DNA of 52,456 nt, the filler included, from Jimgerdemannia flammicorona (taxonomy: Eukaryota), in NCBI GenBank assembly GCA_003990765.1. It is 2 parts of 2 records of this genome, joined end to end, with 100 filler letters (N's around TTAATTAATTAA, not from the genome) between each part and the next. Parts side by side here need not be neighbours in the genome. Positions count along the whole stretch, not along the records: positions 26,286 to 52,456 come from RBNJ01000753.1; 1 more part is not named here. One strand, given 5' to 3'. Below are positions 26,186 to 52,456 of this stretch, one piece after another; position 1 is the stretch's first letter; every line of letters starts with the position of its first letter. The notes below the pieces were generated by a model that saw only the letters and a list, made by a program, of their open reading frames with translations, had not been told where the DNA came from and did not search any database. The position numbers and the translations under genes are program-made.

Positions 26186-26285
26186 NNNNNNNNNNNNNNN
26201 NNNNNNNNNNNNNNNNNNNNNNNNNNNNNTTAATTAATTAANNNNNNNNNNNNNNNNNNNNNNNNNNNNNNNNNNNNNNNNNNNN
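26186..26285. other. Artificial contig-joining spacer (N44-TTAATTAATTAA-N44)
   Basis: Exactly 100 nt, symmetric, with a palindromic 12-mer that gives stop codons in all six frames. Confidence 0.97.
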
Positions 26286-31829: not shown

Positions 31830-32759
<930 letters not shown>

Positions 32760-32760
<1 letters not shown>

Positions 32761-33420
32761 AACAAATTTTATTATTCTATATATAATAATATTTTAATAT
32801 ATTATTATTTTTAATTTTATTATAATATTTTATAAAAAATAAGATCAATAAAATTAATTTATTTTATAACTTATAAGTTTAATAATATAACTTTTTTAAC
32901 TACTATAAGTATAAAAGTCAATTTTATTTAATTATTTAAAATTTTAATAATATTTAAATATATTATAAAATATAATTCAAATTAAAGAATATATATTTTA
33001 TCTCTAAAGTATAAATTTAACTTTTAATATATATAATATAATATTATATTATAGTTGAAAGTTATTAATTAAAATTATTTATAATTTTAAATTTTATAAT
33101 TTTAAGATAAATAACAAATAACTATTATTAAAATTAAATTAAAATGTTAAAATAATATAAAAAAAAATTATTACTATAATATAGATACTATATATTAAGA
33201 ATAAGTTATATAATTTCTATAGAATATAAAATTAACTTAAGAATAACTTAGATAAGTTTAAATAGATTATTAAAGATTAATTTAACATTAATATAAATAG
33301 GGTTAAAATAATATAATTAATATATTTAAATTTAAATAATTAACTAAAACAATAGTTTAAAATATATTTATTAAAATATTACTCTTTTTCTCTATAATAA
33401 TATAATAGATATATATATAC
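32760..33420. repeat. Extremely AT-rich low-complexity tract (end-stage decayed repeat)
   Basis: Very few G/C; it grades out of the mutated LINE remnant on its left. Confidence 0.7.
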
Positions 33421-34999
33421 TAATAAAAGTATGATAGATTTCATGATCTTAAATACTTAATCTTCTTTAACTTTTTGGAGTCAGTATCTTTCTCTAAGAT
33501 AATTTATATTATATAAATATCTTTCAATACTTTTGATATAATTTTTAGAGAAAAAGTATTAGTAATATAATAATACATAAGAGTTCTGATAGATATGCTT
33601 GATCTGATAGACCTAGGGCCTTTGGTTGACAATATATTAGAAAGAACTATAATATAGAAATGGGTTTTTTTAGTAATAAGAGTAGATAGATTAGATGTAG
33701 TAGAAGTTAGCTACTAAGTATAAATAGTAGAGAGCTGAGACTATTGAGCTTTACTAATAAGATATAAGTAGAGCATTGGTCTGAGAGTACTCAGAATAGT
33801 AAGTCAGAGAAGAGAGAAAAGATAAGTACTAAGAGGACTAAAGAATTAATATCTAATAAAATAGATATAGAGACTAGTAGAGCTATTAGTATGAGTGAGA
33901 ATATGACTAATAATAGTATAAAAGAAATCTGAGAAGTAATGGTGAGTATAAAACTAAGAAGACAGAATATACTAGGAAAAGAAATCTAATAAATAGTATA
34001 ATGAGGCTAGTAGTAACTTTATTACTTAAGAAATTAATCTCTGAATTTATTATTAATTTATACTTCTGAGAGCTAACTATAATAGTCAAGATAGTTTGGA
34101 AACTAAATATAAGCCAGATAGCTAGAGTAGTCTCAGTAAATTTCTATAAGAGAGAATTAAGATAAAGGTTAATTAGAGAAGTAGTAATATTAATAGCTCA
34201 TATCTGAGATGAGATCTGAGAATATGTAGTTTAGTTCTTGTAAAATAAATATCTATAGTAATGGCTATTGAGATAAAGTAGAAAGTAATAGAGACTATAT
34301 TAAAGTATAATAATAGTAAATATTAGATTTTAGGTCTGAGAGAAGATCTCATCAAGATAGAAAATATATACAGATATTCAGTTTTAGCTTATTGAGAGAG
34401 TAACTATTGAGAAGACTAGAGACTAGTCTTTAGTTTTGATATAAGATACTTTAGTAATAAGATAATAAGAATAAAAAGAAGTAAGAAGAAGAAGAAGGAT
34501 CTATTAAAGATCCTAAGTATAGCAGTAATAGTATATATATGTATATGTATAATATTAATATACAAAGAGATAGTAAATAGTAAATAGATTTATATAAATA
34601 AAATAATATAAGAGAAGGTCTAGAAGAAGAATAAACAGAGAGATCTATTGATAGATATGAAGAAAATATCTACAACTAGAGCTAAAGAGGGCTTAAAAGA
34701 AGTAAAGATAAATATTTGAGCTAGAAATAGAGTAGAGGAATAGAGAGAGTATGTAGTGGAATGCAGAAAATTATGGAGCCAGCAGCTCTATAACAATTGT
34801 ATACTTGTGATCTAAAAAGAGAAGAAGAAGAGATAAGAGCTGAGCTCAGGACAAAAAGATTATAGAGAATTTAAAGATAGGAGATATGTACAAAGTCCTG
34901 TTTAGAGTATCAGATATAGCAAAAGAAGAATAGATAGTCAAAATAGAAGAGAATGAGCTCATCACCTTTCTCAGCTACTATTCAGATTATATACACTTT

Positions 35000-37900
35000 C
35001 ACAACATACTTCCAATATATTAATTAGAGAAAGATACTAAGGTTAGAGTAACTAATAAGCAAGCTGATATATGTACCAGATTAGGTAGACCTGGAGCCTT
35101 CAACTGGCAAACTATTGGATGAGAGTATAGATAAGAGATAGGGTCCTTTAGTGGTCTGAGTGGGTAAGGCAGTTTGGGCAACAGTAGCAGTACTAGAGAA
35201 GAGACAGGAGAGTAGAGAGAGAGGAACTTTGCTGATATACTAAAGGCTGAGAGATGGCCTGTGGGATCTCATAGCAGGTATGCAGAGAGGAAGGGAAAAG
35301 CAGAGAGAAGGAGAAGCAAAAGATATAGCATCTCAGCCAGGAGGAGAAAGGGCTGGTGATCTAGTAGTTAAGAGTAGAGAGGGGATTGCTGATGGTAGTA
35401 TAACTGAGAATCTGGCAAAAATCCAGATGTAGTTGCTGATGAGAGAGCTGGATTAATAGAACCAAAAAGGAAGAAAGATCTGCTAATGGTGTAATAGGGC
35501 TGGTGGTGGAACCATTACTCAAGAAGTTGATCTTGGAGTTTATGGCAACCTTGTGCTTCTGGAGCTTAGTAGTAATGGTGAGAATGGTTTTGGAGATTAT
35601 CTCAAAGTAGGTAGCTGGAGCTACCTCAGTAAAGTTTCTGAAGAGATTGTAGGAGGTTGAAGTATGGTTTGAGAAGACAGACCCATTAGAGGAAGTATTG
35701 AAATCTGGAGTAGCTGTTAGAGAGGTAGTAGTCCCTTATAGTATAGTTTTTGAGAAAGGACCCCAGAGTAGTTCAGTTACTAGTAAAGGTGATATCTATA
35801 GTAATAAAGATTGAGACAAAGAGGAGGGTAGAGGAGGTGATGGCAGAGTAGAGCAATATAGTTGATATCAGTTTCCAGATATAAAAGGGGACTACTTTCA
35901 GGATAAGAGATATAGATGTCAAGATTAGACTGACTGAGAGAGAGGCCACAGAGAAGACAAGTTACTAGCTTTTGCAAATGATGTAGTGGGCTTTTATCTG
36001 TAAGGTGTCAAGGATGAAAGAGAGTGAAGAGGAGGAGGAGGACTTGTTGGAGGCTTTGGAGCAGATAAGTAGAGTAGTAGAGCAGAGGGCAAAGGCCTGA
36101 AAGTTGTATGTAGAGTTGATACATTTAGAGAATATGGATGGAAAGCTTATTCACACTAATAAGAGGTAGTAAGAGAGAGCTCAAGAATATAAGAAGTAGA
36201 GAAAGTTACTTACAAGTATAGAAGGAGGTATAAAGAAGAATACTAGAGGTACTGAGAAGTCTAGAGATATAAAGATGAGTATCTGGCCTAGTAAGAGAGA
36301 AGAGGATACAGAGGAGGATCTGGATGGGACTGGGAAGGTGCCATATAAGGACTCATTTGCAGATAGTATGTTTGAAGTCTGGGAACCAGTCTTAGAAGAT
36401 ACCCCCTCTCTGGTCCTGCTGTGAGGGACCAGGTGGCAGAGGATGAGTTAATGTAGAGTGCTCAGCAAGTATACTTTGGAGTTCCTAATATAGCAAAAGG
36501 AAGACAGATAGTAGTGGTTAGCAAGGATGAGCTGATGGATATCCCAGAGGAGAGATGGGATGAGACTACAAGTATAGGAGCAAATACCATAATACTGGAT
36601 TTAAGAAGACCAGAGACACTAAGAGGAAAGGATATGGGAAATCTACTATGAATGAGCCAGATGGTGAATAACTTTATAGCTGAAGAGTTGGGAGAAGTAG
36701 ACCTGAGAGTGATGAGTGAGAAGTATTGTGTACAGATCCTATGTAGAGATGGGGTAGTGGAGGCACTGAAGGCAGAGGTACTTGCAATTTTCCTAGAAGA
36801 GGAGGGATATAAGATTGATAAGGAGAGAGAGGCTGAGCTGGCAGTTGTTGCTGGTGAGCAGGCTGCCTACTATTGGGCAGAATATCATGGTTTGCAACTC
36901 TGGTAAGAGGTATACCTGAAGTATTATAAGAACTTTGAGAAAAAAGAGGATGGGGAGATAGCTGAGCTTCTGGTTGGACTGGAGACAAAGTTGGCTGAAG
37001 AGGAGAAATTGGTTGCTGAATATAACTTAAACTTGATACAGAAGGAGATGAATGTAGATTTATATAGGATGAGCTTGATAATTAATATTATTTCTTATAA
37101 ACAGTATAACTAATATTTTCTCTCTGAATGTGAATGAGTTATGTGGAGATCTGAGCAGTATAAGAACATTTTTACTTGGCTTAAGAGATTGGATGCTGAT
37201 CTCTTTCTACTATAGGATATATAGTATGAAGATAAAGAGGATTAGATAGAGTTGACTAGACAATATAGAGGACTATAACTTGAATTAGCAAAGTGGCAAT
37301 TCTGATACAGAGGGGTAAAGGATATTTAGGTGGAATCAGGAGCTGTGGTAACCATTTGATATGGAGAGAATGACATTGACCTGGGTAGGAGCCAGTGAGA
37401 GATAGCTCTTACTACTACTTTATAGCTAGGGGTGAGTAGATTTTGTAGATTGGGGATCTTTTGGAGGAGAGTATTCTCTTGTAGGAGAGAGTAGATGTTC
37501 TGGGAAGTAACTTTAATATAGTGCAGAATCTTCAGTGAGATAGAACAGATGGAGAGAGGGGTACAGATGGGAGAAGTAGTGATCTAGATACATGAGAGAA
37601 GATAGAGAACCTTAGCTCTTTAGGGGATATAGGCAGAATATGGAGGAGAGAAAAAGGATCTATATATACTGGATGAATAGAAGAGGTATGAGGATTGACT
37701 GGATTCTGACAGCTGAATGCTGGAGTGTGGATATTTAGAAGACTCTAGAGGTAAAGTGGTGCCTGTGGTCAGATTACTGGGGACTATTAGTGTAGGAGTA
37801 GTTTGGGGAGAGTGAAGATTGACCCAGACATTAGTACCTTAATACCTCTCTGCTGACTGAGAAGATATTGTTGGATCTATGAGTAGAGGATATCCAAGTG

Positions 37901-39054
37901 AAGATTACTAGCTGAATACATAAGGGATCACTAGTGAGTGTCTGTTGAATATAGTTAAAAGAGACTATAAGGGTTTACTGAGAGGAGCTGGTAGGGATAC
38001 TAGGAGACAGAGAAGAAAAAGAGTAAGATACATATGGTTCAAATTAGTTATTAGATTATAGATAGAATAGGTAGATTTGATAACTTCTGAAGAGGTGGAT
38101 GATTGGAGGTTAGAGTGAGCAAAATTAGAGATGGTGGAGCTACAACAGATACTAAAAGATGAGGAAAAGATACATATGAAAGAAATGGCAGCCAAGCTGA
38201 GGTAGCAGAGGATTGAGGAGGGGGAGAGGCCAACTAGGTACTTATCAAGGCTCCTCTAGGCCAAAAGGGTGTGACATCAATGGCAAGAGATCCTTGATGT
38301 AAAGGGAGAAATAGTGTATGGAATATAACAGATCTTAGAGATATTGAAGAGGAGATGGATGGAGGAGTTTGTAGAGTAAGAAAGAAGAGAGTGCTGATGA
38401 AGAGGTGATTGGAGACATATTGGACAATTTGGAACTGCTGCAAGGAGAGAGTCTTAGAGACTTGATCCTACCAGTCCAAGAGGAGGAGATCTAGAGAGTT
38501 CTTGTGACAACTAAGCTTGAGACAGCACTAGGAGAGAATGGGTTATCTTGAGATATTTGAAAGAAGATAGTGAAGGTCTCTAGAGTATTAGGAGAGATGG
38601 CAGCCCTCTGTGACCTTATTCTTCTGATGGTGAGTAGGTATGAGAGCAGAACTTAGGGCTGGTGGTTTTGTTGTCAAAGATAAGGAGAAGAGGAAGAACT
38701 AGAAGAACTGGAGACCAATCATACTTCTGGATATAGATAGAAAGATGGTGATTAAGATTATTTTCATAAGACTACAGAAGATTACCTAACAGGTGCTAGA
38801 TAAGGAGCAGTAGAGCTTTGTGAGAGACAGGCTTATTAGATATAGGACAGACTGGATTTATAGTATTGTTGGAGAGGTATAGAATTGTGGATTGGATGGA
38901 AGACTGGTCTTTTTGGACCAGGAGAAGACCTATGATCATGTTTAGCAGATATGGCTGGGTAAGGTGCTGGATTGAATTAATATTCTCTCATAATTTCAAG
39001 CTTCTATATTGAATCTGTTGTAGGACAGTAGGGTGGTACTGTTGTGTAATAGTC
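35000..39054 (+). mobile_element. Decayed L1/Tx1-like LINE (ORF1 region, APE, N-half of RT), cut off mid-RT
   Basis: APE remnants DADLFLL* (~37192) and VLGSNFNIV (~37497). RT remnants GEMAALCDLIL, NWRPIILLDIDRK and FLDQEKTYD are homologous to 17058-17669. The sequence stops before the QGDPLSP motif, at the first TTAGGG tract. The left boundary is approximate. Confidence 0.8.
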
Positions 39055-40435
39055 GCTAGGGTTAGGGTTAGGCTTCAAGTAAGGATTTATTCATTGTAGT
39101 GAAGAAAAGGTACATCAGAGCAATAAATAGCAAAGACTCCTGAGATAAGAAAAGCAAAACAAGGCCAGCAAAGTAAGCAACTAGCTAAGAAGTACAAACA
39201 AAGGCCAGAGAGGTGACCTCCCTATAGACAGGCTGGATAAAACCATTTTGTCAAGGCCATAAAGACAAAAAATGCAGAAAGCAAAGAAGAGAAATGAAAT
39301 AGAAATACACAATCACTCGGTGCCAACTACAAGGACCATATTGTCAACCAAATACCAAATGACTAACATGAGATGAATAACTCAATGCATTCTCAGCAAC
39401 AAGGGAACCAACTGAGACGAATGAGGGGAGAGGAAGGAATAAAGAAAATGTATGATCACTCGATCACTCAAGCATCTTCATAATCTCAGTCAGGTAAAAC
39501 CCAACTGCAAGGTGGTTACTGGAATTGCACACAGCATCAATAGCATGGTAGGCTGTCTCGTGAAGAGCATGAAGAGGGTAGACACAAAGTTCTTTCTGAT
39601 ATTCATCACTGGTAAATCAATCGAGTTGTTCATCTCAATTAGAAGTACCTTGGAATGTAGAATAGGAACCATCAAGAAGACTGCACCTGAGAAGATGGCC
39701 ATAATGAAACTTATCTCCACAGGGGCAGGGGCGGAGTTGACTAAAATAGCCATAATGCCAGACGAGAGCAGAGCACACAAGCCAGGGGGAGAAAGGAGAG
39801 GACACAATCGGCTCTCCATAACTGCAAGCGGTCTTTGGGGGTGATATACCAAACAAGAGCCTGAGAGAAAGAGGCCCATTCCTGCTGTAACTGATCATGA
39901 AGGAAGGACTGAAGGAAGAAGCAGAGCAAGCAAGTCTTGCAGACCTAGGGATGAAGGTCCCAGTACCAGTCAAGGAGGTCAAGCCAAGAGGTCCAATGCC
40001 TGAACTTGTCAATAATAGAACCCAGGGGATGTGTGACAAAGCACTCGGTAAGGGGGCTAATGGGATTGTTGCCAGACTTGCTATACTAATCTAGATGGGT
40101 TTGGAATATACAGCAGGGTCCAAAATATGATGAAGGAATGAAGGGAGGCTGAGAATCAAACTGCTAAGTAAGGGACAGTCGGAGAATCTGACTGCCCAAG
40201 TGATAGCATCATTAAAGACCTGCTTGGGATACTTCAACATCTGAAGCCCCATAGTAGTAGCCAGACAGGAGGCTTGTAAAAGAGGAAGGTCATACTCCAG
40301 CTAAGGTCTAATGAATGTCTATATAATAGCCAACTTGATTATCGGCAACCAGAGGGGACCACAGGCATGGCAGAACCCAAGAGTCCATTCCACCTTTGCC
40401 ACATTCTGTAATGTGAGGCTGACAAAGTCAAACCC
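39055..40435 (-). mobile_element. Telomere-repeat-tailed non-LTR element, unit 1 (5'-truncated, ~1.4 kb)
   Basis: Begins (+ strand) ctagggttagggttagg|cttcaagtaag. Co-linear with units 2-5 and ends at ...aagtcaaaccc. Confidence 0.9.
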
Positions 40436-40474
40436 AGGGTTAGGCATAGGGTTAGGGGTAGGGTTAGGGGTAGG
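40436..40474 (+). repeat. Longest interstitial telomere-like tract (TTAGGG and variants); others at 39056-39072, 42860-42870, 47946-47965, 51915-51928
   Basis: Read directly; every tract ends ...TAGG immediately before CTTCAAGTAAG. Confidence 0.9.
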
Positions 40475-42859
40475 CTTCAAGTAAGAATTTTTTCATTGTA
40501 GAGAAGACAAGGTACATTGAAGCAACAAAAGACAAAGACTCCTAAGATGAAAAAAGCAAAACAAGGCCAGCGAAGTAAATAACTAGCTAAGAAGAATAAA
40601 ACAAAGGCCAGAGAGGTGACCACCCTATGGACAGGCTAGATAAAATCATTTTATAATAGCCGTAAAGATAATAAATACAGAAAATAAAGAAAGGGAAGGC
40701 TAAGATATAATACACATTCACTCAGTGCCAGCTATATGAACTGGGTCAACAATCAAATACCAAATGACTGATATGAGATAAATAACTCAATATGCTCTCA
40801 ACAATGAGGGAACCAACCAAGGCAAATGAGAGGAAAGAAAGAAGTAAAGAAAATGTGCGACCGCTTGATCACCTAAGCATCTTCGTAATGTCGATCAGGC
40901 AGAACCCAACTGCAAGGTGGCCACCAGAATTACATATGGTATTGATAGTGTGATAGACCATCTCGTGAAGAGTATAAAGAGGGTAAGCATGAAGTTCTTC
41001 CTGCTATTCATCATTGGTAAACCAATCAAGCTATTCATCTCGATCAGAAGTACCTTGGAAAGTAGAATATGAACCATCGAGAAGACCACACCTAGGGAGA
41101 TGGCCATAATGAAACTGATCTCCACAGGGGCAGGGGCGGAGTTGGCCAAAATAGCCATAATGCCAGGCAAGGGCAGAACACACCAGCCAGGAGAGGAAGG
41201 AGAGGACACAGTCAGTGCCCCATGACCACAAGCGGCCTTTGGGGGTGATATACTGAACAAGAGCCTGGGAGGAGGAGGCCTATTCCTGCAGCAGTTGATC
41301 CCAAAGGAAGGACTAGAGGAAGGAGTGGAGTGAGCGAGTCTTGTAGACCTGAGGACAAAGGTCTCAGTACCAGTCAAGGAAGTCAAGCCAGGAGGTCCAA
41401 CATCAGAACTTGTCAATGATAGAACCTGGGGGATATGTGACAAAGTGCTCGTTAAGTGGGCTGATGGAGTTGTTGCCAGACTTGCTACACTAATCGAGGT
41501 GGGCTTGGAACATGCATCAGAGGTCGAACATATGACAGAGGAAGGAAGAGAGGTCGAGAATCGAACTGCTAAGCAAGGGATGGCCGGAAAATCCAACTGC
41601 CCAAGCAACAGCATCATCAAAGACTTGCTCAGGGCACTTCAACATCTGAAGCCCCATGGTAGTAGTCAGACAGGAGGCTTATAGAAGAGAAAGGCCATAC
41701 TCCAGCTGAGGCCTGATGAATGTTGGTACGATGGCCAACTTGACAGTTAGTGATTAGAGAGGACTACTGGTGCAGCAGAACCCAAGAGTTCATTCTGCCT
41801 TTGCTGTATTCCACAATGTGAGACTGATAAAGTCAAACCCTTTGTTGATATATGGCATGCCCAGGTACATATAGGAGGGGGGTCATGGGCAGGGTTCACA
41901 CCCAATCAGCACAGTACAGTTAGCAGGGCCAATATAATCACACTTCTTGAGGTTGAGCTCCATACCATTCATCCAAAGCTAGTCTTCGCAAAAGTCAACC
42001 ATCCTCTACCCTTGTGCGGTAGTGTGGGGGTGAGGGCGATATCATCAGCAAAGAAGAGCCTGAGGGGGAAGTTGTACTCCTTGAATTGTTCATCAAAGGA
42101 GGCAGCAAGGGGGTCGATAAAGACATCAAATAGCCAAGGAGAGAGAAGGGAGCACTGGAACAGACCATGCTCAGTGGAGATCGAAGGGGTGATGAGGTCA
42201 ATAACAACCACCTGATAGGAACAGTGATTGAACAGGCTTCAGATAATGCTAAGGAGGGCCACATTGGTACCTCACATCCGAAGTTGTAAAAGAATGAGAT
42301 TGAGGGAGACTCAGTCATATGCCTGCCAGAGGTCAAGAAAGACACAGTTGCCCCATCTCTTGGCCCACGTATCATGCAATAGCAAGACATGAGAGAGGGA
42401 TGAGAAGTGGGTTCAGAAGCCAACTTGGCAGTATGACATTTCTGTCAGGCTACTTTGGCTCTTGATATATCCTTCCAAACACCACTTGAAGAGTCTACGA
42501 AACATTTCAGTCATAGTAATAGGGTGAAATCCATCTATCATATGTGATTCCTCCTTTTTAGGAACTAGGATGATGATGGCAGAGTTCTAGCAGCAGGGAG
42601 TGAGCCCCCAAACCATGTATATTTGGAAGAAGAATGATAGGGCCTTCGACAGACTACAGGGGGCATTCTTCTCACCTACCATCACCTTAAGGATCCGGAC
42701 ATGCAAGGAGTTGGCTCCACATACCTTTGAGAGGGGGTAGCTGCCAATAGCCCTCTAAACCACAGGCTGGTTGAACTAATATGATAGTCCAAGAGCACCT
42801 ATGCCGAAAGAGAAGACATCCTCAGAGTCATCAAGATGGAGGGAGGCATTCGGTTGGCC
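40436..42859 (-). mobile_element. Telomere-repeat-tailed non-LTR element, unit 2 (5'-truncated, ~2.4 kb, includes RT core)
   Basis: Tract agggttaggcatagggttaggggtagggttaggggtagg|cttcaagtaag. RT motifs SLLSPWLFDVFIDPL and LFFADDIAL. Confidence 0.92.
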
Positions 42860-43264
42860 TTAGAGTTAGGCTTCAAGTAAGGATTTATTCATTATAAAGA
42901 AGATAAGGTACATCAAAGCAATAAAAGACAAGGACTCCTAAGATGAGAAAAGCAAAACAAGGCCAGTGAAGTAAACAACTAGCTAAGAGGAACAAACAAA
43001 GACCAGAGAGGTGACCACCCTATGGACAGGCTGGATAAAAACCATTTTGTCATGGCCATAAGGGTAATAAATGTGGAAAGCAAAGAAAAGGAAGGCTAAG
43101 ATATATTACACATTCACCTGGTGTCAATTACATGAACTGTATCAACAACCAAATACCAAATGACTGACATGAGATGAATAATTGAATGCACTCTCAACAA
43201 TGAGGAAACCAACCAAGGCAAACAAGGGGAAAGAAAGAAGTAAAGAAAATGTGCGATTGCTCGA

Positions 43265-46200
43265 TCACCTAAGCATCTTCATAATCTTGATCAGACAGAA
43301 CCCTAGCATGAGATAGCCACCAGAGTTACACATGGAGTTGATAGTGTGATAGGCTGTCTCGTGAAGAGCGTGAAGAGGGTAGACATGAAGTTCTTCCTGC
43401 CATTTGTCATTGGTAAACCAATTGAACTGTTCATCTCGATTGGATGAACCTCAGAAAGCAGAATACAAACCATCAAGAAGACCACACCTGAGGAGATGGC
43501 TGCAATGAAACTTATCTCTACAGGGGCAGGGGCGGGGTTGGCTAAAATAGCCATATCGCTAGGTGAGGGCAGAGTGCATAAGCCTGGGGGGAAGGAGAGG
43601 ACATGGTCAGTACCCTACAACTGCAAGTGGTCTTTGGGGGTGATATACCAAACAAGAGGCAGGGAGGATGAGGCACATTCCTGCAGCAGCTGATCCTGAA
43701 AGAAGGACTGGAGGAAGGAGCAGAGTGAGTGAGTCTTGCAGACCTAGGGATGGAGGTCCCAGTACTAGTTGAGGAAGTCAAGCCAGGAGGTCCAACACCA
43801 GAACTTATCAATGATAGAACCAGTGAGACATGTGATAAAGCACTTGCTAAGAGGGCCAATGAGGTTGTTGCCAGACTTACTACACCAATCTAGGTGGCTT
43901 GGAACATGTAGCAGAGGTCGGATGTACAATGGAGAAAGGAGGGGAGGCTAAGAATTGAACTGCCAAGCAAGGAACAGCCGGAAAATCTGACTGCCCAAGT
44001 GACAGCATTATCAAAGACCTGCTCGGGATGCTTCAATACCTGAAGCCCTGTGGTAGTAGCTAGACAGGAAGCTTGTAGAAGAGAGAGGCCATACTTCAGC
44101 TGAGGCCTGATGAATGTTCGAATGATGGCCAGCTTGACCATTGGTGACCAGAGAGAACCATGGGCATGGCAGAACCCAAGAGTTCATTCTGCCTTTGCCG
44201 CATTTTGCAATGTAAGGCCAACAAAGTCAAACCCTTTGTTGGTGTATGGTATGCCCAGGTATATATATGAGGGGGGTCACAGGCAGAGTTTGCCCCCAAT
44301 CAGTAGGGTACAGTCAACAGGGCCAACATAACTGCATTTCTTGGGATTGAGCTCTATGCCATTTACCTGAAGCCAGTCCTCGCAAAAGTCAACCATCCTC
44401 TGCCCTTCCACGGCAGTGCGGGGGGTGAGGGTGATGTCATTAGCAAAGAAGAGCCTGAGGGGGAAGTCATACTCCTTGAATTATTCATCAAAGGAGGTGG
44501 CGAGGGGGTCGATAAAGACAAGGGGAGAGGAGAGAGCCCTGGAAGAGGCCATGCTCAGTGGGGACCGAAGGGTTGACGAGGCCATTAACAACTACCTGAT
44601 AAGAACAGTGATTGAACAGGCTACAGATAATGCTAAGGAGGGCTGCATCGGCACCTCGTGCCTCAAGTCACGAAAGAATGAGCTTGGGGAGACTCCGTCA
44701 TATGCCTGTCAGAGGTCAAGAAAGACATGGTGGCCCCATCCTTTAGCTCACATCTCATGCGATAACAAGACGTGAGAGAGAGATGAGAAGCAGGTTCAGA
44801 AGCCACCTTGGTAGCATGACATTTCTGTCAGACCACTTTGGCTCTTGATATAACCTTCCAAACACCGCTCGAAGAGTCTACGAAATATTTCAGTTATAGC
44901 AATAGGGCGAAACCCATCAATCATACATGATTCCTTCTTCTTAGGGATCGAGGTGATGATGGCAGAGTTCCAGCAGCAGGGAGCGAACCCCCAAACCATG
45001 CACATTTGGGAAAAGTATAATAGGGCTTTCGATAGACTATAGGGGGCATTTTTCTTACCTGCCATCACCCAAAGGATCCAGACATGGAAGGAGTCGGCTC
45101 CACATGCCTTTGAGAGGGGGTAGCTGTGGATAGCCCTCCAAACTGCAGGTTCATCAAACCAAGACTGAGTCTAAGAGCACCCATACCAAGAGGGAAGAAA
45201 TCCTCAGAGTCATCAAGATGAAGGGAGGCATCCAGCTGGCCAAAGATAGTGGTGAAATGAGCAACCACATTGTCGAACACTAGGACATTGGGGGAGCGAG
45301 ATTGGAGGAGAGTGAGGGGGGTAGAGTGGTATGCTTGCTTGAAACCATGAATGGCATCGGAGACTGAAGATGCACTACAAAGAAGGTCCTGCCAAGGGAG
45401 CAGCACTGCCCTGATCTCTCTTACATTATACAAGCCAAGAATGTCCTCACAAAATGATTGTAGACCAGAGGTCAAAAGGACATCAAGAGAATTCACAAAC
45501 TGCTGATGATCTTCCACAGAGTGAAAGCTAGCAATATGGTCTCTGTTAGAGTAGATGGACCTAACAACAGTATTGTAAATGATATCTGCTGATTCCCGGA
45601 GGTGGGCTTGAATGACCAGATTGGTCAGGTATCTCACAGAGTAATGATGGATGCCAGCCAAGGTGGCAACTGGTGAGGGGGAGAAGGAAAAGGAGATAGT
45701 AAGGAGGGAGGGGTGGTCGGTAGCAATAGGAGGGGTGGAGCAAGTGAGAGATGCATAGAGGGATATGGTGGCAAATGCATGATCAACGTATATGGATCCA
45801 GCCACTATAGTCAGATGGTTCAATGACTATGTCATCAGGGAGGTGTCGACGACATCCATCTGGTTGCAGGGACCAGAGTTGATGTCACTAAGGTGAGCAC
45901 CGAAGCAGGTATTGATGTCACCAATCAAAAGGGCCTTATCTGAGAAGGGTCCTGATACCAGATCTCGGAAGCCACCAATGGGAAGAGAGGGGAGGGCATA
46001 AACCCCAACCAAAGCCAGGCCCTCGAACATGAGCCGAATATGGAAGGGGTCAGTGGAGGACTCAGAAATAAGTAGGGTGAAATGGTTTGACACGAGGACC
46101 ACAAGGCCACCATTCTGATGACCCACAATCCTGTTCGACACCAGGGGAGAAAACATGTGAATGAGCAGAGAGGGATGCAGCAGGATGTACCACATTTCAC

Positions 46201-46297
46201 ATATGAAAAGAATGTTGAGGGCAGGACCAATCAGCTGACTGAGCATATCAAACTTGTCCTGGGGTAGTCTGTGTACATTGAGGAACCCAACTCTCAT
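43265..46297 (-). pseudogene. ORF2 of unit 3: APE endonuclease + reverse transcriptase
   Basis: APE motifs MRVGFLNV, LFICEMW, LVGVYA, LLIGDIN, YVDHAF and TDHP. RT motifs ITSIPKK, GFRPIAITEIFRRLFE, QGGF and RTFIRPQLKYG. Broken by stops and frameshifts; the 3' boundary is approximate. Confidence 0.85.
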
Positions 46298-46309
46298 TGT
46301 AGGCTGGGC

Positions 46310-47536
46310 GCATTAGTGCCAACAGTGTGGGAAGCACCTGAGGAGGAAGCTTCAGCTTCCAAATCTATTGCCATATCTCCTATCATGGCTACAGTACCAC
46401 TTGCCTTCAAAGCAGGGCCAGCCGACAGGGGGGCAGAGGGGGGAGAGTGAGGCCAAGTTCCGCGGCCCAAGCTCTGTAGAAGGTCTGCACCTCAGGCCTC
46501 TTTACAGTGGCTTCGCCAGCCAACTGCCAGACCCGAGCATGGAAGGACTGGAGTACCCATGTCTTCATGGCCTCTATGGCATTCTTGTTGTTAGGAAGCA
46601 CAGGGCCCCAGGCCGACAGCACCGAGAACCCAAGCACCTTCATCCTCTTTTAGAACACTGTGATATAATCAGGATAGAATAGGAATTCAATGGTTAACAC
46701 CGAGACATACGACATATTGAGAACTTTTGACAACATTATATAGACATCATACAGGTTCTTCCAGATCTGCCCGATCTTGGATGGGCAAATCCGTCAACAT
46801 AAATGTGCTACAGCCTAGTGCCATTCTCAGTTGGTGACAAATGAGAGGTCAGCTTGTAGTTATGTATGAAAGATCGGTGGCAGCAGCTGCCCTTTCAGTC
46901 TCAGGGTAGACCTGGGTCCTATCTTTGATAGAGACCTTCTTGGCGATGGCGGCATATGATTTGAGGGGGGTAGGGGTCGAAGCAGGGGATGAAGACAGAC
47001 TGGCAGAGCTGGGTCTTACAGGTGTAACCCTAACCCACTGGCCTGGGGGCCTTGGCCTTGGCCTTTTTAGGGGGTGCAGCTTTAGCGGCTAGAGGCACAG
47101 CCGTGGGAGTTGCCTCCTTCAGTGGTGCATCAGACTGTGATGGGGTGGCTTTAGCAGCCTGCTTGTCTGCTCTCTTCTGAGCCTTCGACCATGTGTTTGT
47201 GACAGGTCCAGTAGGAGGGGGGGCCAAGGACTTGTGGGGGGCAGATGTGGAAGGGGTGGCAGGAGTATTTCTCGAAGGAGTACCAGATGATGAGGGGGTG
47301 GTGGGTGCAGACCATATAGCAATCTGCGCTAATAGCTGGGCATTGATCTTGACCAGTTCAGCTACTTGAGTCAGCAGATCTGAGATCTGCTTCCTCATCG
47401 TGGCCATCTCTATGACCAGATCAGGGTTGGGTGAGGGGCCCACATGACCAGCCATCAGGGCATAGAGAGTAGTGGGGGCACTGGGCATCATGGTCTGAAT
47501 CTGAAGAGATCGCAATCTCTTCGTCATCTTCTGCAT
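46310..47536 (-). pseudogene. ORF1 of unit 3 (coiled coil, P/T/A-rich linker, SYAAIAKK motif)
   Basis: ORF 47030-47536 with heptad-like EMATMRKQISDLLTQVAELVKINAQLLAQI. It continues after a stop. The C-terminal part is homologous to ORF 51344-51934 of unit 4. Confidence 0.7.
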
Positions 47537-47945
47537 CGTGTAGGGAAGATAAATATGCTGATATCAGTCATACATCCCCGCACGACCTACACATCTCTGT
47601 AAGGCTACCCTCGCCAAAGCCAAGAGAGAGAAGACCAATACTGTGACCCTCAGTACAGCAGAGAGAGGCGGCAAAGCATACAAAGAGACAGGTGGCATTG
47701 CTGTCATCACCGATGATGGAGGAGGTGGCCAACATTACTGAATTAAGCAGAGGTGTATTTGTTTGTATTTATGAAATTGTGAAATATGGGTCACATGACC
47801 TTTGTTTGTGCAACAAAAAAATAATAGTAAATGGTGGTATTTATACCCAATGAGAGGCTTAGCTAATCAAAGTGACTGCTTTCATAATTTGGAATAGCTT
47901 TGGGCCATAAAGCCGAGTCTAACCAAATGGTGAAATCATGTGAGT

Positions 47946-50900
47946 GGGATAGGGTTAGGCTTAGGCTTCAAGTAAGAATTTATTTATTGTAGAGAAGACA
48001 AGGTACATTAGAGCAATAAAAGGCAAAGACTCCTAAGATGAGAGAAGTAAAGCAAGGCCAGTAAAGTAAATAACTAGCTAAGAAGAACAAAACAGAGGCC
48101 AGAGAGGTGACCACCCAATGGACGGGCTGGATAAAACTATTTTGTCATGGCTGTAAAGATAATAAATGCGAAAAGTAAAGAAAAGGAAGGCTAAAATATA
48201 ATACACGTTCGCCTGGCACCAACTACATGATCATTGACAACTAAATACCAAATGACTGATATGAGATGAATAACTCAACGTACTCCCAACAATGAGAGAA
48301 CCAACCAAGGCGGATGAGGGAAAAGAAGAAAGTAAAGAAAATATATAATTGCTTGATCACCTAAGTATCTTCATAATCTCGGTCAGGCAGAACCCAACTA
48401 TGAGATGGCCACCAGAATTATAAATAGTATCAATAGTATGATAGGCCATCTCGTAAAGATCATGAAGAGGGTAGGCATGAAGTTCTTCCAGCCATTCATC
48501 ATTGGTAAACCAATCAAGCTATTTACCTCGATCAGAAGTACCTTGGAAAGCTGAATAAGAACCAACAAGAAGACTGCACCTAGGGAGATGGCTATAATGA
48601 AACTTATCTCCACAGGGGCAGGGGTGGGGTTGGCCAAAATAGCCATAATGCCAGGTGAGCACAGTGCGCACCAGCTAGAGGGGGATGGAGAGAATATGGT
48701 CAGTACCCCACAACTGCAAGTGGTCTTTGGGGGTGATATACCAAATGAGAGCCTGAGAGGAGGAGGCCCATTCCTGCAGCAGGTGATCCCGAAGGAAGGA
48801 CTGGAGGAAGAAGCAGAGTGAGCAAGTCTTGTGGACCAGAGGATGAAGATCCCAGTACTAGTCGAGGAAGTGAAGGTCCAACGCTGGAACTTGTCAATGA
48901 TAGAACCTGGGGAATGTGTGACAAAGCACTTGCTAAGGGGGCCGATGGGGTTGTTGCCTGACTTGCTACACCAATCCAGATGGGCTTGAAACATGTAGCA
49001 GAGGTCAGATATATGATGAAGGAAAGAGGGGAGGCCAAGAATCGAACTACCAAGCAAGGGACGGCCAGAAAACCCAACTGCCCAAGCAAAAGTGTCATCA
49101 AAGACCTGTTTAGGATACTTTAACATCTGAAGCCCCATAGTAGTAGCCGGATAGAAGGCTCGTAGAAGGGGGAGGCCATACTCCAGCTGAGGCCTGATGA
49201 ATGTTCATATGATGGCCAGCTTGACCATTGGCAACCAGAGAGGACCATGGGCATGACAGAACCCCAAAGTTCATTCCATCTTTACTATATTCTGTAATGC
49301 TAGACTGATAAAGTCAAACCCTTTATTAGTATTTAGTACACCCAGGTACACATAGGGGGGGGGTCATGGGCAGGGTTCACCCCCAATCAGTACAGTACAG
49401 TCAGCAGGGCCAATATAACCACACTTCTTAGAGTTGAGCTCTATACCATTTGCCCAAAGCCAGTCTTCACCGAAGTCGACCATCCTCTGTCCTTCTACAG
49501 CAGTGTGGGGGATGAGGGAGATATCATCAGTAAAGAAAAGCCTGAGGGGGAAGTCATACTCCTTGAACTGTTCATCAAAGGAGGCAGCAAGGGGGTCGAT
49601 AAAGACATCAAACAACCAAGGGGAGAGGAGGGAGCCCTGGAGGCTACACTTAGTGGGGACTGAAGGGGTGATGAGGCCATTAACAACCATCTAATAGGAA
49701 CAGTGGTTGAACAGGCTTTAGATAATGCTGAGGAGGGCCGCATTGGCACCTTGTACCTCAAGTCGGAAAAGAATGAGTTTGAGAGGGACTCAGTCATACA
49801 TCTGCTGGAGGTCAAGAAAGACATGGTGGCCCCATCTCTTAGCCCACATATCATGTGATAGCAAGACATGAGAGAGGGACAAGAAGTGGGTTCGGAGCTA
49901 CCTTGGCAGCACAACATTTCTGTTTGACTACTTCAGCTCTTAACGTAACTTTCCAAACACTGCTCGAAGAGTCTACGAAATATTTCAGTCAGAGCAATGG
50001 AGTGAAATCCATCAATTATGCGCAATTCCTCCTTCTTAGGGACCAGGGTGATAATGGCTAAGTTCCAGTGGTGGGGAGTAAGCCCCCAGACCATACATAT
50101 CTAGAAGAAGAATGATAGAGCCTTCGACAGGCTACAGGGGGCTTCCTTCTCACCTGCCATCACCTGAAGGATCCAGACATGTAAGGAGTTGGCTCTACAT
50201 GCCTTCTAGAGGAGGTAGCCGCTGATAGCCCTCCAAACCACAGGCTGGTCAAACCAAGACTGCAGTCCAAGAGCACCCACACCAAGAGAGAAGATATCCT
50301 CAGAGTCATTGAGATGGAGAGAGACATCTGGTTGGCCAAAGATAGTGGTGAAGTGAACAACCACATCATCGAACACCAGGATATTGGAGGAGTGAGATTT
50401 GAGGGGTGCAAGGAGAGTGGAGCGGTACACTCGCTTGAATTCACAAATGGTATCAGAGACCGAAGATGTACTACGAAGAAGGTCCTGCTGAGGGAGTGGC
50501 ACTACCCTGATCTCTCTTGTATCATACGAGCCAAGAATGTCCTCACAAACTGACTATAGACCAGAGGTCAAAAAGGCATCAAGAGAATCCACAAACTGTT
50601 GGCGATCTTCCATAGAGCAAAAGTCAGCAATATGGTCTCTGATAGAATAGATGGACCTGACAACAGTATCGTAAATAATATCTGCTGATTCCCAGAGGTG
50701 AGCTTGAATGACCAGATCAGTCAGATATCTCACAGAGTAATGACAGATACTAGCCAAGACAGTGACTGGCGAGGGGGAGAAGAGAAAGGAGACAGTGAGG
50801 AGGGAGGGGTGGTTGGAAGTGACAGGAGGGGTGGAGCAGATGAGGGACGCATGGAGGGACATAGTGGCAAATGCATGATCAACACATGTAGATCCAGCCA

Positions 50901-51914
50901 CTGAGGTCAGGTGGTTCAACAACCATATCATCAGGGAGGTGTCAATGATATCCATCTGGTCGCGGGAACTAGAGCCGACATCACTAAGGCAGGCACTGAA
51001 GTGGGTATTGGTGTCACCAATCAAAAGGGCCTTACCTGGGAAGGGTCCAGACACCAGATCATAGAAACCACCAATAGGAAGAGAGGAGAGGGCATAAACT
51101 GCAACCAAAGCCAGGTCCTGGAATATGAGCCAGATATAGAAGGGGTCAGTGGAGGACCCGGAAATAAGGTGGGCAAAACAGTTTGACATGAGGACTACAA
51201 GGCCACCATTCTGATGACCTATGATCCTGTATGATACCAGGGGGGGGGACATGTGAATGAGCAGAGAGGGATGTAGTGGGATGTGCCATGTTTTAAATAT
51301 AAAACGAGCGTCAAGGGCAGGACCAATTAACTGACTGAGCACATCAAACTTGTCCTAGGGTAGTCTGTGTGCATTGAGGAACCCAACTCTCATTGTGGGC
51401 CAGGCGCATTAGTGTCAACAGTGTGAAAAGTATCTGAGGAGGAAGCTTCAGCTTCCAAATCCATACAGTACCACCTGCCTTCGAAGCTGGGCTGGCTGAC
51501 GTGGGGGCAGAGGAGGGGCAGGTAAGGCCGAGTTCTGTGGCCCAAGCTCTGTAGAAGGTCTGTACCTCAGGCCTCTTTGCAGTGGCTTCACCAGCCAACT
51601 GCCGGACCCAAGCATGGAATGACTTGAGTACCCAGGGGAGCATGGGGTTCCAGGCCGAAAGCACTAAGAACCCGAGCATCTTCATCTTCATTTGGAATGC
51701 TGTCATATAATTAGGGTGGAGCAGGAATTTGATGGTCAATGCCAAAACATACGACATATTGAGAATCTTTGACAATATCACATAGATGTCATACAAGTTC
51801 TTCCAGATCTGCCTGATCTTAAGATGGACAAATCTGTTGATGTAAATGTGCTGCAGCCTAGCACCCTTCTCAGTCAGCAACAAATGAGAGTTCAGCTTGT
51901 GGGTCATGTATGAA
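47946..51914 (-). mobile_element. Telomere-repeat-tailed non-LTR element, unit 4 (5'-truncated within ORF1, ~4.0 kb)
   Basis: Tract gggatagggttaggcttagg|cttcaagtaag. RT motifs LQGSLLSPWLF and FFTDDISL; APE in 50554-51342. Ends at ...gtatgaaag, where unit 3 continues atcggtgg. Confidence 0.92.
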
Positions 51915-52311
51915 AGGTTAGGGCTAGGCTTCAAGTAAGAATTTATTTGTTATAGAGAAGACAAGGTACATCAGAGTAACAAAAGACAAAGACTCCTAAG
52001 ATGAGAAAAGCAAAACAAGGCCAGCGAAGTAAACAACTAGCTAAGAAGTACAAAACAAAGGCCAGAGAGGTGACCACTCTATGGACGGGCTGGATAAAAC
52101 CATTTTGTCCCAGCCGTAAAGATAATAAATGCAAAAGCAAGAAGAGAAAGGCTAAGATATAATACACATTCGCCTGGTGCCAACTACATGAACCGTATCA
52201 ACAACAAATCACCAAACGACTGACATGAGATGAATAACTCGATGCACTCTCAACAACGGAGGGAACCAACTGAGGTAAATGAGGGGAAAGAAGGGAGTAA
52301 AGATAATGTGG
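51915..52311 (-). mobile_element. Telomere-repeat-tailed non-LTR element, unit 5 (3' UTR only, then T-rich contig end)
   Basis: Tract aggttagggctagg|cttcaagtaag; co-linear with the 3' UTRs of the other units. Confidence 0.9.
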
Positions 52312-52456
52312 GTTTTTTTTTTTTTTTTGTTTTTTTTTTTTTTTTTTTTTTTTTTTGGTTTTTTGTTTTTTTTTTTTTTTCGGTTTTTTTGTTTTTTTGT
52401 AATTTTTTAGTTCGTTTTTTAATGTTTTTTGGGGTTTTCTTTTTTTTTTTTTTTTT
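52312..52456. repeat. T-rich low-complexity end of contig
   Basis: Long interrupted T-runs; likely a poly(A) tail on the minus strand or low-quality sequence. Confidence 0.8.

What the first reader, a model, noticed from the sequence alone, without database searches (positions are those of the whole stretch)
39040..39090. Array starts at a break in the middle of an unrelated LINE RT: signature of chromosome healing
Seen: the plus-strand L1/Tx1-like element (35000-39054) stops between the DQEKxYD and QGDPLSP motifs, exactly where ctagggttagggttagg begins. The homologous copy at ~17210 continues normally and has no telomeric sequence there. The missing RT half does not reappear in the next 13 kb. 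Inference: a broken or eroded end received de novo telomeric repeats and then the first element, rather than the element inserting into a pre-existing long telomere tract.
Basis: partly seen in the sequence, partly recalled or inferred. Interest (0 to 1): 0.7.

Follow-up and report, generated by a model that had tools for sequence, protein, structure and literature searches.

The report
Healed chromosome end under retrotransposon array
An old LINE was cut off at a telomere-like six-base stretch, and a chain of telomere-targeting retrotransposons then grew outward from the cut; the same scar recurs at many chromosome ends of this genome.

Summary
Largely right, with one correction. The plus-strand L1-like element is intact at its 5' end but stops 10 codons before QGD. 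Its missing 1.67 kb is not distal. Its homology runs to 39062, not 39054: 'CTAGGGT' is native L1 sequence (3 of 29 sisters read ACTAGGGT), a 6-7 nt telomere seed. Only 5 nt remain before TTAGGC, the end shared by almost all copies of the array element, so 'telomerase repeats first' is not shown here.

Terminal loss and outward growth are well supported genome-wide. 29 of 29 informative full-length 5' ends meet another copy or a telomere tract. Proximal copies are the most decayed in 24 of 26 arrays. Interrupted flanks resumed in 0 of 7 testable arrays.

First-step odds: element primed on a nearly bare end 0.45; telomerase, then endonuclease insertion 0.3; break-induced replication 0.17. This contig stops before any telomere.

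The element is an APE+RT LINE, unlike MoTeR and FoTeR (REL endonuclease) and their clade-mate Cnl1. 5 of 9 distant metagenomic relatives carry the same telomeric tail. The scan already reported this lineage on another piece of this genome (e1-7552753).

The parts
33486..39062 (+). Decayed L1/Tx1-like LINE with its 5' end present, through ORF1, APE and the N-terminal half of RT; the 3' 1.67 kb is missing
   Evidence: 5' end aligns with the 5' region of a longer L1 on C1129; motifs; alignments to C336 and C1129 copies end at 39062; the C336 copy runs on for at least 1673 nt, its 3' piece mapping up to 1651
38916..38936 (+). RT motif DQEKTYD of the broken L1
39055..39062 (+). GCTAGGGT: overlap between L1 codons (H-R-G in intact copies) and the telomere repeat; the seed of the junction
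   Evidence: sisters read ACTGGGGT x5, ACTAGGGT x3, ACCAGGGT x3 and further variants, n=29; G at 39055 differs from the family's A
39063..39067 (+). TAGGG: the only bases that are neither L1-alignable nor the element's terminal hexamer
   Evidence: sequence
39068..40435 (-). Array copy 1, 5'-truncated (about 1.37 kb of the 3' end), ending ...CTTGAAGCCTAA
   Evidence: 14% of reference CpG kept
40436..40469 (+). Variant telomeric spacer (34 nt) between copies 1 and 2
   Evidence: no other locus with this junction among 40 scored of 514 candidates (the one cross-junction hit, C3961, is truncated elsewhere)
40470..42859 (-). Array copy 2, 5'-truncated (about 2.4 kb)
42860..47949 (-). Array copy 3, full length (ORF1 + APE-RT-CCHC ORF2, decayed), with a one-unit spacer at its 3' end
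47950..51915 (-). Array copy 4, 5'-truncated (about 4.0 kb), with a short spacer at its 3' end
51916..52310 (-). Array copy 5 (0.39 kb seen), the least decayed copy; cut by a poly-T run
   Evidence: transitions 0.081 against 0.143-0.150 for copies 1-4
52313..52456 (.). Poly-T run at the contig end, probably the poly(A) tail of another LINE inserted into copy 5 (inference); no telomere is reached
32250..32740 (-). Separate 3'-terminal piece (last ~450 nt) of an L1 of the same family; not the missing RT half
   Evidence: maps to nt 1212-1651 of the continuation; 32740-33486 does not align above shuffles
26186..26285 (.). N spacer joining two unrelated contigs (C752 and C753)

Best explanation
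A chromosome arm lost its tip, by breakage or erosion, inside an old L1 (shown: 5' end present, 3' 1.67 kb gone, no duplication of a target site). Loss stopped at TAGGGT, a telomere-like stretch made by decay of the L1's own codons (inferred from sister variants). A telomere-targeting APE+RT LINE whose RNA ends in about (UAACCC)1-3 paired with that G-rich 3' end, bare or carrying one or two telomerase repeats, and was reverse-transcribed outward (inferred). Later copies were added the same way, 3' end inward, so the oldest copy is innermost (gradient shown genome-wide), and telomerase caps the outermost copy (shown at other ends; not seen on this contig). Terminal loss with outward rebuilding, by any of the three routes, has about 0.9; this particular first step has about 0.45.
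For: 29 of 29 informative full-length 5' ends (30 examined, 1 at a contig end) are followed by the next copy (19) or by TTAGGG to the contig end (10), never by other DNA. No opposite-strand hit in 28 element-bearing contig stretches. First copy more diverged than last in 24 of 26 arrays (transitions, p=1.5e-7), 23 of 26 (transversions), 57 of 68 adjacent pairs. Array starts cut many unrelated repeats in mid-body. The flank resumed in 0 of 7 arrays with other DNA further out. In 6 more (C9002, C1347, C1627, C2084, C1752, C3033) the array runs from the broken repeat to a telomere tract with no other DNA between. Spacers are short: 82 of 95 are 18 nt or less, against terminal tracts of 78-166 nt; 3 matches with 3.5 or more perfect repeats against 230 matches to the 3'-end pattern. 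Overlap of 2 nt or more at 7 of 16 scorable starts (null 8.5%, p=1.8e-4). C708 joins through native GTTGGGC onto the element's TTAGGC with no added repeat.
Against: The focal junction scored 0 under the strict rule (A-to-G at 39055; 2 of 49 conserved A differ this way in this copy), and 8 of 16 scorable starts show no overlap. Telomerase is present and apparently heals ends here: TERT motifs on C164, and 7 of 9 capped truncated ends overlap the repeat by 2 nt or more. The APE catalytic residues are intact, so cutting a tract is possible. Short spacers can result from purging of long ones (PMC7367193). Arrays also move by recombination here. The reference copy for the age test is itself a terminal copy, and a methylation gradient could add to the transition trend. 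This contig does not reach a telomere, and no reads were available.
Confidence: 0.45

Rival explanations
1. Telomerase healed the break at TAGGGT and built an ordinary telomere. The element's APE later nicked the G-strand near the inner edge of that tract (SART/TRAS or MoTeR style). Insertions that left long spacers broke off again, so only short spacers survive. This is.
For: TERT motifs present; capped truncated ends overlap the repeat by 2 nt or more in 7 of 9 against a 6.9% null; APE residues N12, E39, Y105, D132, N134, D199, H200 invariant in 25 relatives; stable MoTeR spacers are at most two repeats (PMC7367193); 7 of 95 spacers exceed 24 nt.
Against: No base at this junction requires telomerase. 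C708 and the C412 junction at reference position 2845 have no added repeat. The 6-7 nt overlap here is longer than any at capped ends (maximum 4 exact).
Confidence: 0.3
2. Break-induced replication: the eroded L1 end invaded an element-element junction on another chromosome end and copied that array as a block.
For: The 19 nt GCTAGGGTTAGGGTTAGGC are identical to the junction after a full-length copy on C2084; GCTAGGG(TTAGGG)nTTAGGC occurs at 4 other junctions in the fetched set, 3 of them after full-length copies, which would explain the G at 39055. Copies 1-4 are equally decayed. C918 and C3254 share one array-start junction, and C412 holds a duplicated one. BIR is documented for MoTeR arrays (PMC7367193).
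Against: No twin: the best matches of copies 1-4 among the fetched copies are 83-86%; junction 1/2 was not found elsewhere among 40 scored candidates; the L1-telomere junction pattern matches once in the genome. A read-through RNA would deliver the same G.
Confidence: 0.17
3. No terminal loss. Either the array inserted into the L1 with the rest lying beyond the contig end, or the L1 inserted next to an existing array by twin priming (5' part inverted), or an internal deletion joined two TAGGGT stretches.
For: The contig ends before the far side of the array. A minus-strand L1 3' piece lies 750 nt left of the L1's 5' end, the layout that twin priming (recalled, no call) gives.
Against: 0 of 29 full-length 5' ends and 0 of 7 testable arrays show a resumed flank. 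A pattern for telomere repeat plus L1 continuation has 0 matches (incomplete assembly). The minus piece holds only the last ~450 nt, with 1.2 kb unaccounted for, unalignable filler, and no target-site duplication by inspection. This L1 is among the most decayed of its family (GC 0.40, sisters' median 0.47) and has 0 CpG, against GC 0.50 and 15 CpG for an L1 that sits inside an array copy of similar age on C336 (one comparator; 8 of 28 sisters also have 0 CpG).
Confidence: 0.05
4. Assembly chimera: the assembler jumped between two repeats at a shared TAGGGT.
For: Fragmented assembly (35,354 contigs), both sides are high-copy repeats, and no reads could be checked.
Against: Both sides are 14-20% diverged from their nearest sisters, so they are effectively unique; an 8 nt overlap is far below an assembler's overlap length (general knowledge); about 30 other starts have the same anatomy.
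Confidence: 0.03

Closest known systems
MoTeR1 (Pyricularia oryzae), FoTeR (Fusarium oxysporum), Cnl1 (Cryptococcus): fungal telomeric non-LTR elements
   Same: Tandem arrays at chromosome ends, 5' end outermost, short TTAGGG spacers, breakage followed by healing or BIR, other transposons inserting into the array (PMC7367193 passages and first part of Conclusions; PMC12857005 sections 18-19; bioRxiv 10.1101/2021.08.11.455996 passages).
   Different: MoTeR1 and FoTeR carry a restriction-like endonuclease and group with Cnl1, CRE and SLACS. This element has an N-terminal APE and two ORFs. The passages read report no age-ordered record and no array starts in mid-transposon.
SART/TRAS (R1 clade, Bombyx, Tribolium) and Tx1-1_ACar (anole)
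   Same: APE-type LINEs inside telomeric repeats of telomerase-bearing hosts (PMC5537684 passages, PMC10088271 section 9).
   Different: Animal elements described as inserting within the tract by endonuclease specificity, with poly(A) tails (SART/TRAS) and both orientations. Here there is one polarity, a telomeric tail instead of poly(A), and very short spacers. Sequence relationship not tested.
HeT-A/TART/TAHRE (Drosophila, Jockey clade)
   Same: Head-to-tail end addition; attachment to broken ends; TART and TAHRE keep an APE although end addition is thought to need no nick (PMC5537684, PMC4700185 passages).
   Different: Drosophila lacks telomerase and short repeats; this genome has TERT motifs and TTAGGG caps.
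Athena/Coprina endonuclease-free Penelope-like elements
   Same: Attach to exposed G-rich overhangs with the help of reverse-complement telomeric repeats at their 3' end (PMC8557442 passages): the mechanism I favour for the first step.
   Different: They lack an endonuclease and have a telomerase-related RT; this is a LINE whose nearest solved relative is human L1 ORF2p (E 1.9e-47).

Membership tests
Healed chromosome end (terminal deletion with a new end) | Flank cut at an arbitrary internal position, continuation absent | tested here: met
   within this contig only
Healed chromosome end (terminal deletion with a new end) | Short overlap between the native sequence and the telomere repeat at the join | tested here: inconclusive
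   7 of 8 nt against 3 of 29 sisters and a rare seed, but 0 by the strict rule
Healed chromosome end (terminal deletion with a new end) | The structure runs on to a terminal telomere tract | not testable with these tools
   The contig ends in poly-T. 11 of 14 telomere-picked contigs have the element within 42 nt of the tract.
De novo telomere addition by telomerase at this junction | Repeats that only telomerase can have added | tested here: inconclusive
   Only 5 nt are unassigned, and the element's tail supplies them at most junctions
APE-type non-LTR retrotransposon (array element) | N-terminal APE with catalytic residues, RT, C-terminal zinc knuckle, upstream ORF1 | tested here: met
   P0001 (993 aa open stretch) and P0002 from a young copy on C52; RVT_1 E 2e-18, Exo_endo_phos weak at E 0.019, below its cut-off; invariant residues; profile matches L1 ORF2p over 3-722 and L1 endonuclease chains
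Telomere-specific retrotransposon | Single polarity, telomeric junctions, arrays ending at terminal tracts | tested here: met
   (28 contig stretches with copies; not all of the several hundred copies)
MoTeR/FoTeR/Cnl1 (CRE clade) | Restriction-like endonuclease, no APE | tested here: not met
   APE at the N-terminus; no such C-terminal family reported by Pfam
Athena/Coprina | No endonuclease, Penelope-type RT | tested here: not met
SART/TRAS (R1), Tx1 or any named LINE clade | RT phylogeny with reference elements | not testable with these tools
   No Repbase or Dfam reference set was available; the 557 relatives at E 1e-30 or better are unnamed
Twin-primed (5'-inverted) L1 insertion | Inverted 5' part abutting the 3' part, with a target-site duplication | tested here: not met

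The most novel reading that the evidence does not exclude
A deep, widespread clade of APE-type LINEs with telomeric 3' tails heals broken chromosome ends directly, in competition with an intact telomerase: the RNA tail pairs with telomere-like seeds in whatever DNA is exposed, without a nick. The age-ordered arrays then record repeated loss and regrowth of chromosome tips, and mutational decay of ordinary transposons supplies the seeds.
Probability: 0.3. Interest if true: 0.75.

Novelty: new variant of a known kind. Interest (0 to 1): 0.5.

Why it matters
Healed ends and telomeric retrotransposon arrays are both known, so one junction alone is modest. What this genome adds is a sample of about 30 array starts, 9 capped truncated ends and an age order along the arrays. 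With these, the open question of whether such elements cut telomeres or cap bare ends can be tested from sequence and by a marked assay. The fungal telomeric LINEs in the papers I read are CRE-clade; an APE-type one did not turn up in eight literature searches, but subscription journals and Repbase were not covered. Tip loss here stopped about 8 kb from an NLR-like gene, so the process can remove or spare subtelomeric genes.

Tried and rejected
Sequencing runs: none was listed for window 36500-40400, so no reads were laid; this is no evidence either way. Names and sources of the protein relatives could not be looked up, so their hosts remain unknown. CpG content as proof that the L1 predates the array: weak, since 8 of 28 sisters also have none in the same 1.5 kb; I rely on GC content and one comparator. 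G-rich flanks as a general healing signature: rejected, skew positive in only 17 of 31 starts. A recurrent hot spot at this L1 seed: one match only, the focal one. Overlap at truncated internal junctions: mixed, 5 of 13 cleanly placed (20 examined) have 2 nt or more. Twin priming: rejected. Plasmid tblastn: one 23% RT hit, uninformative. Earlier-findings search by sequence: nothing. Four start rows were dropped before the counts: three whose neighbour is an old copy of the element and one duplicate. 15 of 31 starts had no usable homologue in the fetched set. Supplements were not read; those of PMC7367193 and PMC12857005 hold junction tables that may bear on the comparison.

Full report
WHAT IS THERE. 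The window joins two unrelated contigs with an N spacer at 26186-26285. From 33486 to 39062 lies a decayed plus-strand L1/Tx1-like LINE (clade label from its motifs, recalled). Its 5' region aligns with a longer copy on C1129. It carries APE and RT motifs up to DQEKTYD at 38916-38936 and stops ten codons before QGD. From 39068 to 52310 lie five minus-strand, head-to-tail copies of a second element (about 1.4, 2.4, 5.1, 4.0 and 0.4 kb), each ending in ...CTTGAAGCCTAA plus a short telomeric spacer. A poly-T run then ends the contig. The missing part of the L1, about 1.67 kb, is not distal: 1 of 29 sister continuations hit there, only in the poly-T bin, and tblastn gave nothing.

THE JUNCTION, BASE BY BASE. 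In 29 sisters the next eight bases read ACTGGGGT (5), ACTAGGGT (3), ACCAGGGT (3), ACTGGAGT (3) and further variants; the window reads GCTAGGGT. BLAST alignments to three other copies run to 39062. The variants fit decay of H-R-G codons (CAC CGG GGT) by C-to-T changes on both strands (inference). So the first telomere-like unit can be L1 sequence. A match of 6 nt or more to a TTAGGG phase ends at 0.16-0.25% of L1 positions, so the break sits at a rare seed. After the seed come five bases, TAGGG, and then the element's terminal TTAGGC. The weak point is base 39055. It is G where 28 of 29 sisters have A, and my strict script therefore scored the overlap 0. A-to-G occurs at 2 of 49 conserved A in this copy. 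The same G is found where a new copy follows a full-length one (GAGTG-GCTAGGG), and the 19-mer is identical on C2084. A donor junction or a read-through RNA could thus have supplied it.

THE ELEMENT. A young copy at the end of C52 gives open stretches of 514 and 993 aa. ORF2 has an N-terminal APE with invariant N12, E39, Y105, D132, N134, D199 and H200 across 25 aligned relatives, RT (FADD) and a CxC...H...C knuckle. The nearest solved structure is human L1 ORF2p. The genome search returned 381 candidates for its 3' end and 189 for its 5' end, 40 scored each. ORF1 look-alike clusters are mostly Mucoromycota and Zoopagomycota (score 0.92, a lead only), so an early-diverging fungus is likely but not shown.

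THE ARRAYS ARE TERMINAL AND GROW OUTWARD. Of 30 full-length 5' ends, 19 meet the next copy, 10 meet TTAGGG to the contig end, and 1 is cut by the contig; none meets other DNA. In 29 contig stretches, 28 with copies, no hit is on the opposite strand. Of the first 14 contigs listed with eight perfect repeats (523 overlapping matches in all, roughly 70 tracts by my estimate), 11 have the element within 42 nt of the tract, 2 have other DNA between, and 1 has no element. Measured against a terminal copy, the first copy is more diverged than the last in 24 of 26 arrays for transitions and 23 of 26 for transversions, and in 57 of 68 neighbouring pairs. CpG observed/expected, which needs no reference, follows the same trend by inspection, often in sharp steps (0.06 to 0.70 on C3035). 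In this window copies 1-4 are alike (0.143-0.150) and copy 5 is younger (0.081, 393 nt only).

OTHER ARRAY STARTS. I collected 35 starts and dropped 4 (three next to an old copy of the element, one duplicate), leaving 31. Many cut another repeat in mid-body, including this L1 family at other positions (C1627, C52, C412, C708, C1129, L030). The flank resumed in 0 of 7 arrays that have other DNA further out. In six others the array runs from the broken repeat straight to a telomere tract. C1627 is the closest parallel: an L1 broken in RT, three copies, then a telomere. Overlap with the repeat is 2 nt or more at 7 of 16 scorable starts (null 8.5%, p=1.8e-4) and zero at 8. On C708 the L1's own GTTGGGC supplies the element's terminal hexamer with no repeat added, which telomerase cannot explain. 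Spacers have a median of 12 nt at starts, 10 after truncated copies and 11 after full copies; 82 of 95 are 18 nt or less. Genome-wide, 3 places have 3.5 or more perfect repeats before the 3' end, against 230 matches to the 3'-end pattern.

TELOMERASE AND RECOMBINATION ALSO ACT. The telomerase RNA-binding domain is found on C164 and C902, and C164 has motif A, B' and C sequences. Nine truncated copies capped by TTAGGG overlap the repeat by 0-4 nt, 7 of 9 by 2 nt or more against a 6.9% null, as telomerase healing would give. C918 and C3254 share one start junction, and C412 carries a duplicated one, so arrays are also copied between or within ends. No twin of this array was found, but only about 30 contig stretches were read.

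HOW IT MOST LIKELY AROSE. Loss of the tip inside the L1 and rebuilding outward has about 0.9. TPRT gives 5'-truncated copies, not 3'-truncated ones (established), and twin priming fails on missing sequence, filler, target-site duplication and relative decay. The first step cannot be read from five bases. I put priming of the element's RNA tail on the seed, bare or with a stub of repeats, at 0.45; telomerase first with APE insertion near the inner edge at 0.3; BIR at 0.17. The MoTeR work shows why short spacers do not decide this: tracts of three or more repeats break, stable ones are at most two, and the authors could not separate transposition from BIR (PMC7367193: passages and part 1 of 2 of the Conclusions).

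RELATIVES. The representative search found 557 unnamed proteins at E 1e-30 or better. Of 80 metagenome loci kept (231 confirmed), 9 match at E 1e-65 or better, at 26-35% identity. Five of the 9 have 12-28 nt of CCCTAA phase 150-980 nt downstream of the match on the sense strand, as here; shuffles gave 0-1 of 500. One of the other four holds only 115 nt downstream and one has 9 nt. None of the 71 weaker loci has two tandem repeats.

COMPARISON WITH PRINT. MoTeR1 and FoTeR have restriction-like endonucleases and group with Cnl1 and CRE (PMC12857005: abstract, sections 18 and 19). Cnl1 arrays are described in bioRxiv 10.1101/2021.08.11.455996 (passages). A 2023 list of telomeric elements names only MoTeR1 for fungi (PMC10088271: passages, section 9). 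SART/TRAS and TART/TAHRE have APE, and the Drosophila elements are thought to attach without a nick (PMC5537684, passages) and are found at broken ends (PMC4700185, passages). Athena and Coprina attach to G-rich overhangs (PMC8557442, passages). PMC8381367 was seen as passages. Endonuclease-independent L1 insertion at telomeres was seen only as a title in a reference list. Eight searches showed no APE-type telomeric LINE in a fungus in their listings; subscription papers, Repbase and supplements were not seen.

VERDICT. The feature is real as assembled and the healed-end reading holds. The breakpoint moves 8 nt into a native seed, and the telomerase-first step is unproven. It works like MoTeR, HeT-A and Coprina arrays but is not a member of those families. 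New variant of a known kind; interest 0.5.

Noticed in passing
window 26186-26285: N spacer joining two unrelated contigs; features on either side should not be read as neighbours.
   Followed up: yes
window 26286-30873: CHAT + NB-ARC + Sel1 gene about 8 kb inward of the healed junction.
   Followed up: partly
C918 (L101/L167) and C3254 (L186): Two contigs share the same array-start junction but differ in their first copy; the first copy on C3254 shares an internal deletion (about 1090 to 1230) with the first copy on C52: exchange between ends, or haplotypes.
   Followed up: partly
C412 (L144-L146), oriented 5563 and 16744: Duplicated block about 11 kb apart, 92% alike at the junction, with an L1 flank, an abortive 3' fragment of about 27 nt and then a longer copy.
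   Followed up: partly
C708 (L147), oriented 14662: Element joined to a broken L1 through native GTTGGGC with no telomeric repeat added.
   Followed up: yes
C2302, C708, C2090 ends: Telomere tract without the element (C2302) or separated from it by 2.5-3 kb of other repeats, so ends are also capped without it.
   Followed up: partly
L108:140-217 (C52): About 78 nt of unrelated sequence between two short telomere tracts at the very end of the contig.
   Followed up: no
C3035 oriented 9278 and L185:3471: Spacers share a variant motif GTGTGAGG before TTAGGG, suggesting a common donor or read-through.
   Followed up: no
C1347 oriented 6471; C1129 oriented 18495: New copies are preceded by short pieces resembling the element's own 5' end (8 nt and about 40 nt): read-through RNA, template switch or deletion.
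   Followed up: no
array starts on C753, C1627, C52, C412, C708, C1129, L030: The broken L1 flanks all have positive GC skew (0.29-0.56), consistent with the G-rich sense strand pointing to the end, although all flanks together show no such bias (17 of 31).
   Followed up: partly
L142 (C902): Second locus matching the telomerase RNA-binding domain, with stops inside one match; intron, paralogue or relic not examined.
   Followed up: no
L192: Metagenomic relative with a second APE start downstream on the same strand, possibly a tandem copy; L191 and L194 have satellite-like repeats with CCCTAA after the tail.
   Followed up: no
window 31982-32247: 120 nt poly-T plus about 150-230 nt of another element's 3' end nested in a minus-strand L1 3' piece.
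   Followed up: partly
plasmid hit H1: Unannotated 23% match to the RT region in a bacterial plasmid record.
   Followed up: no
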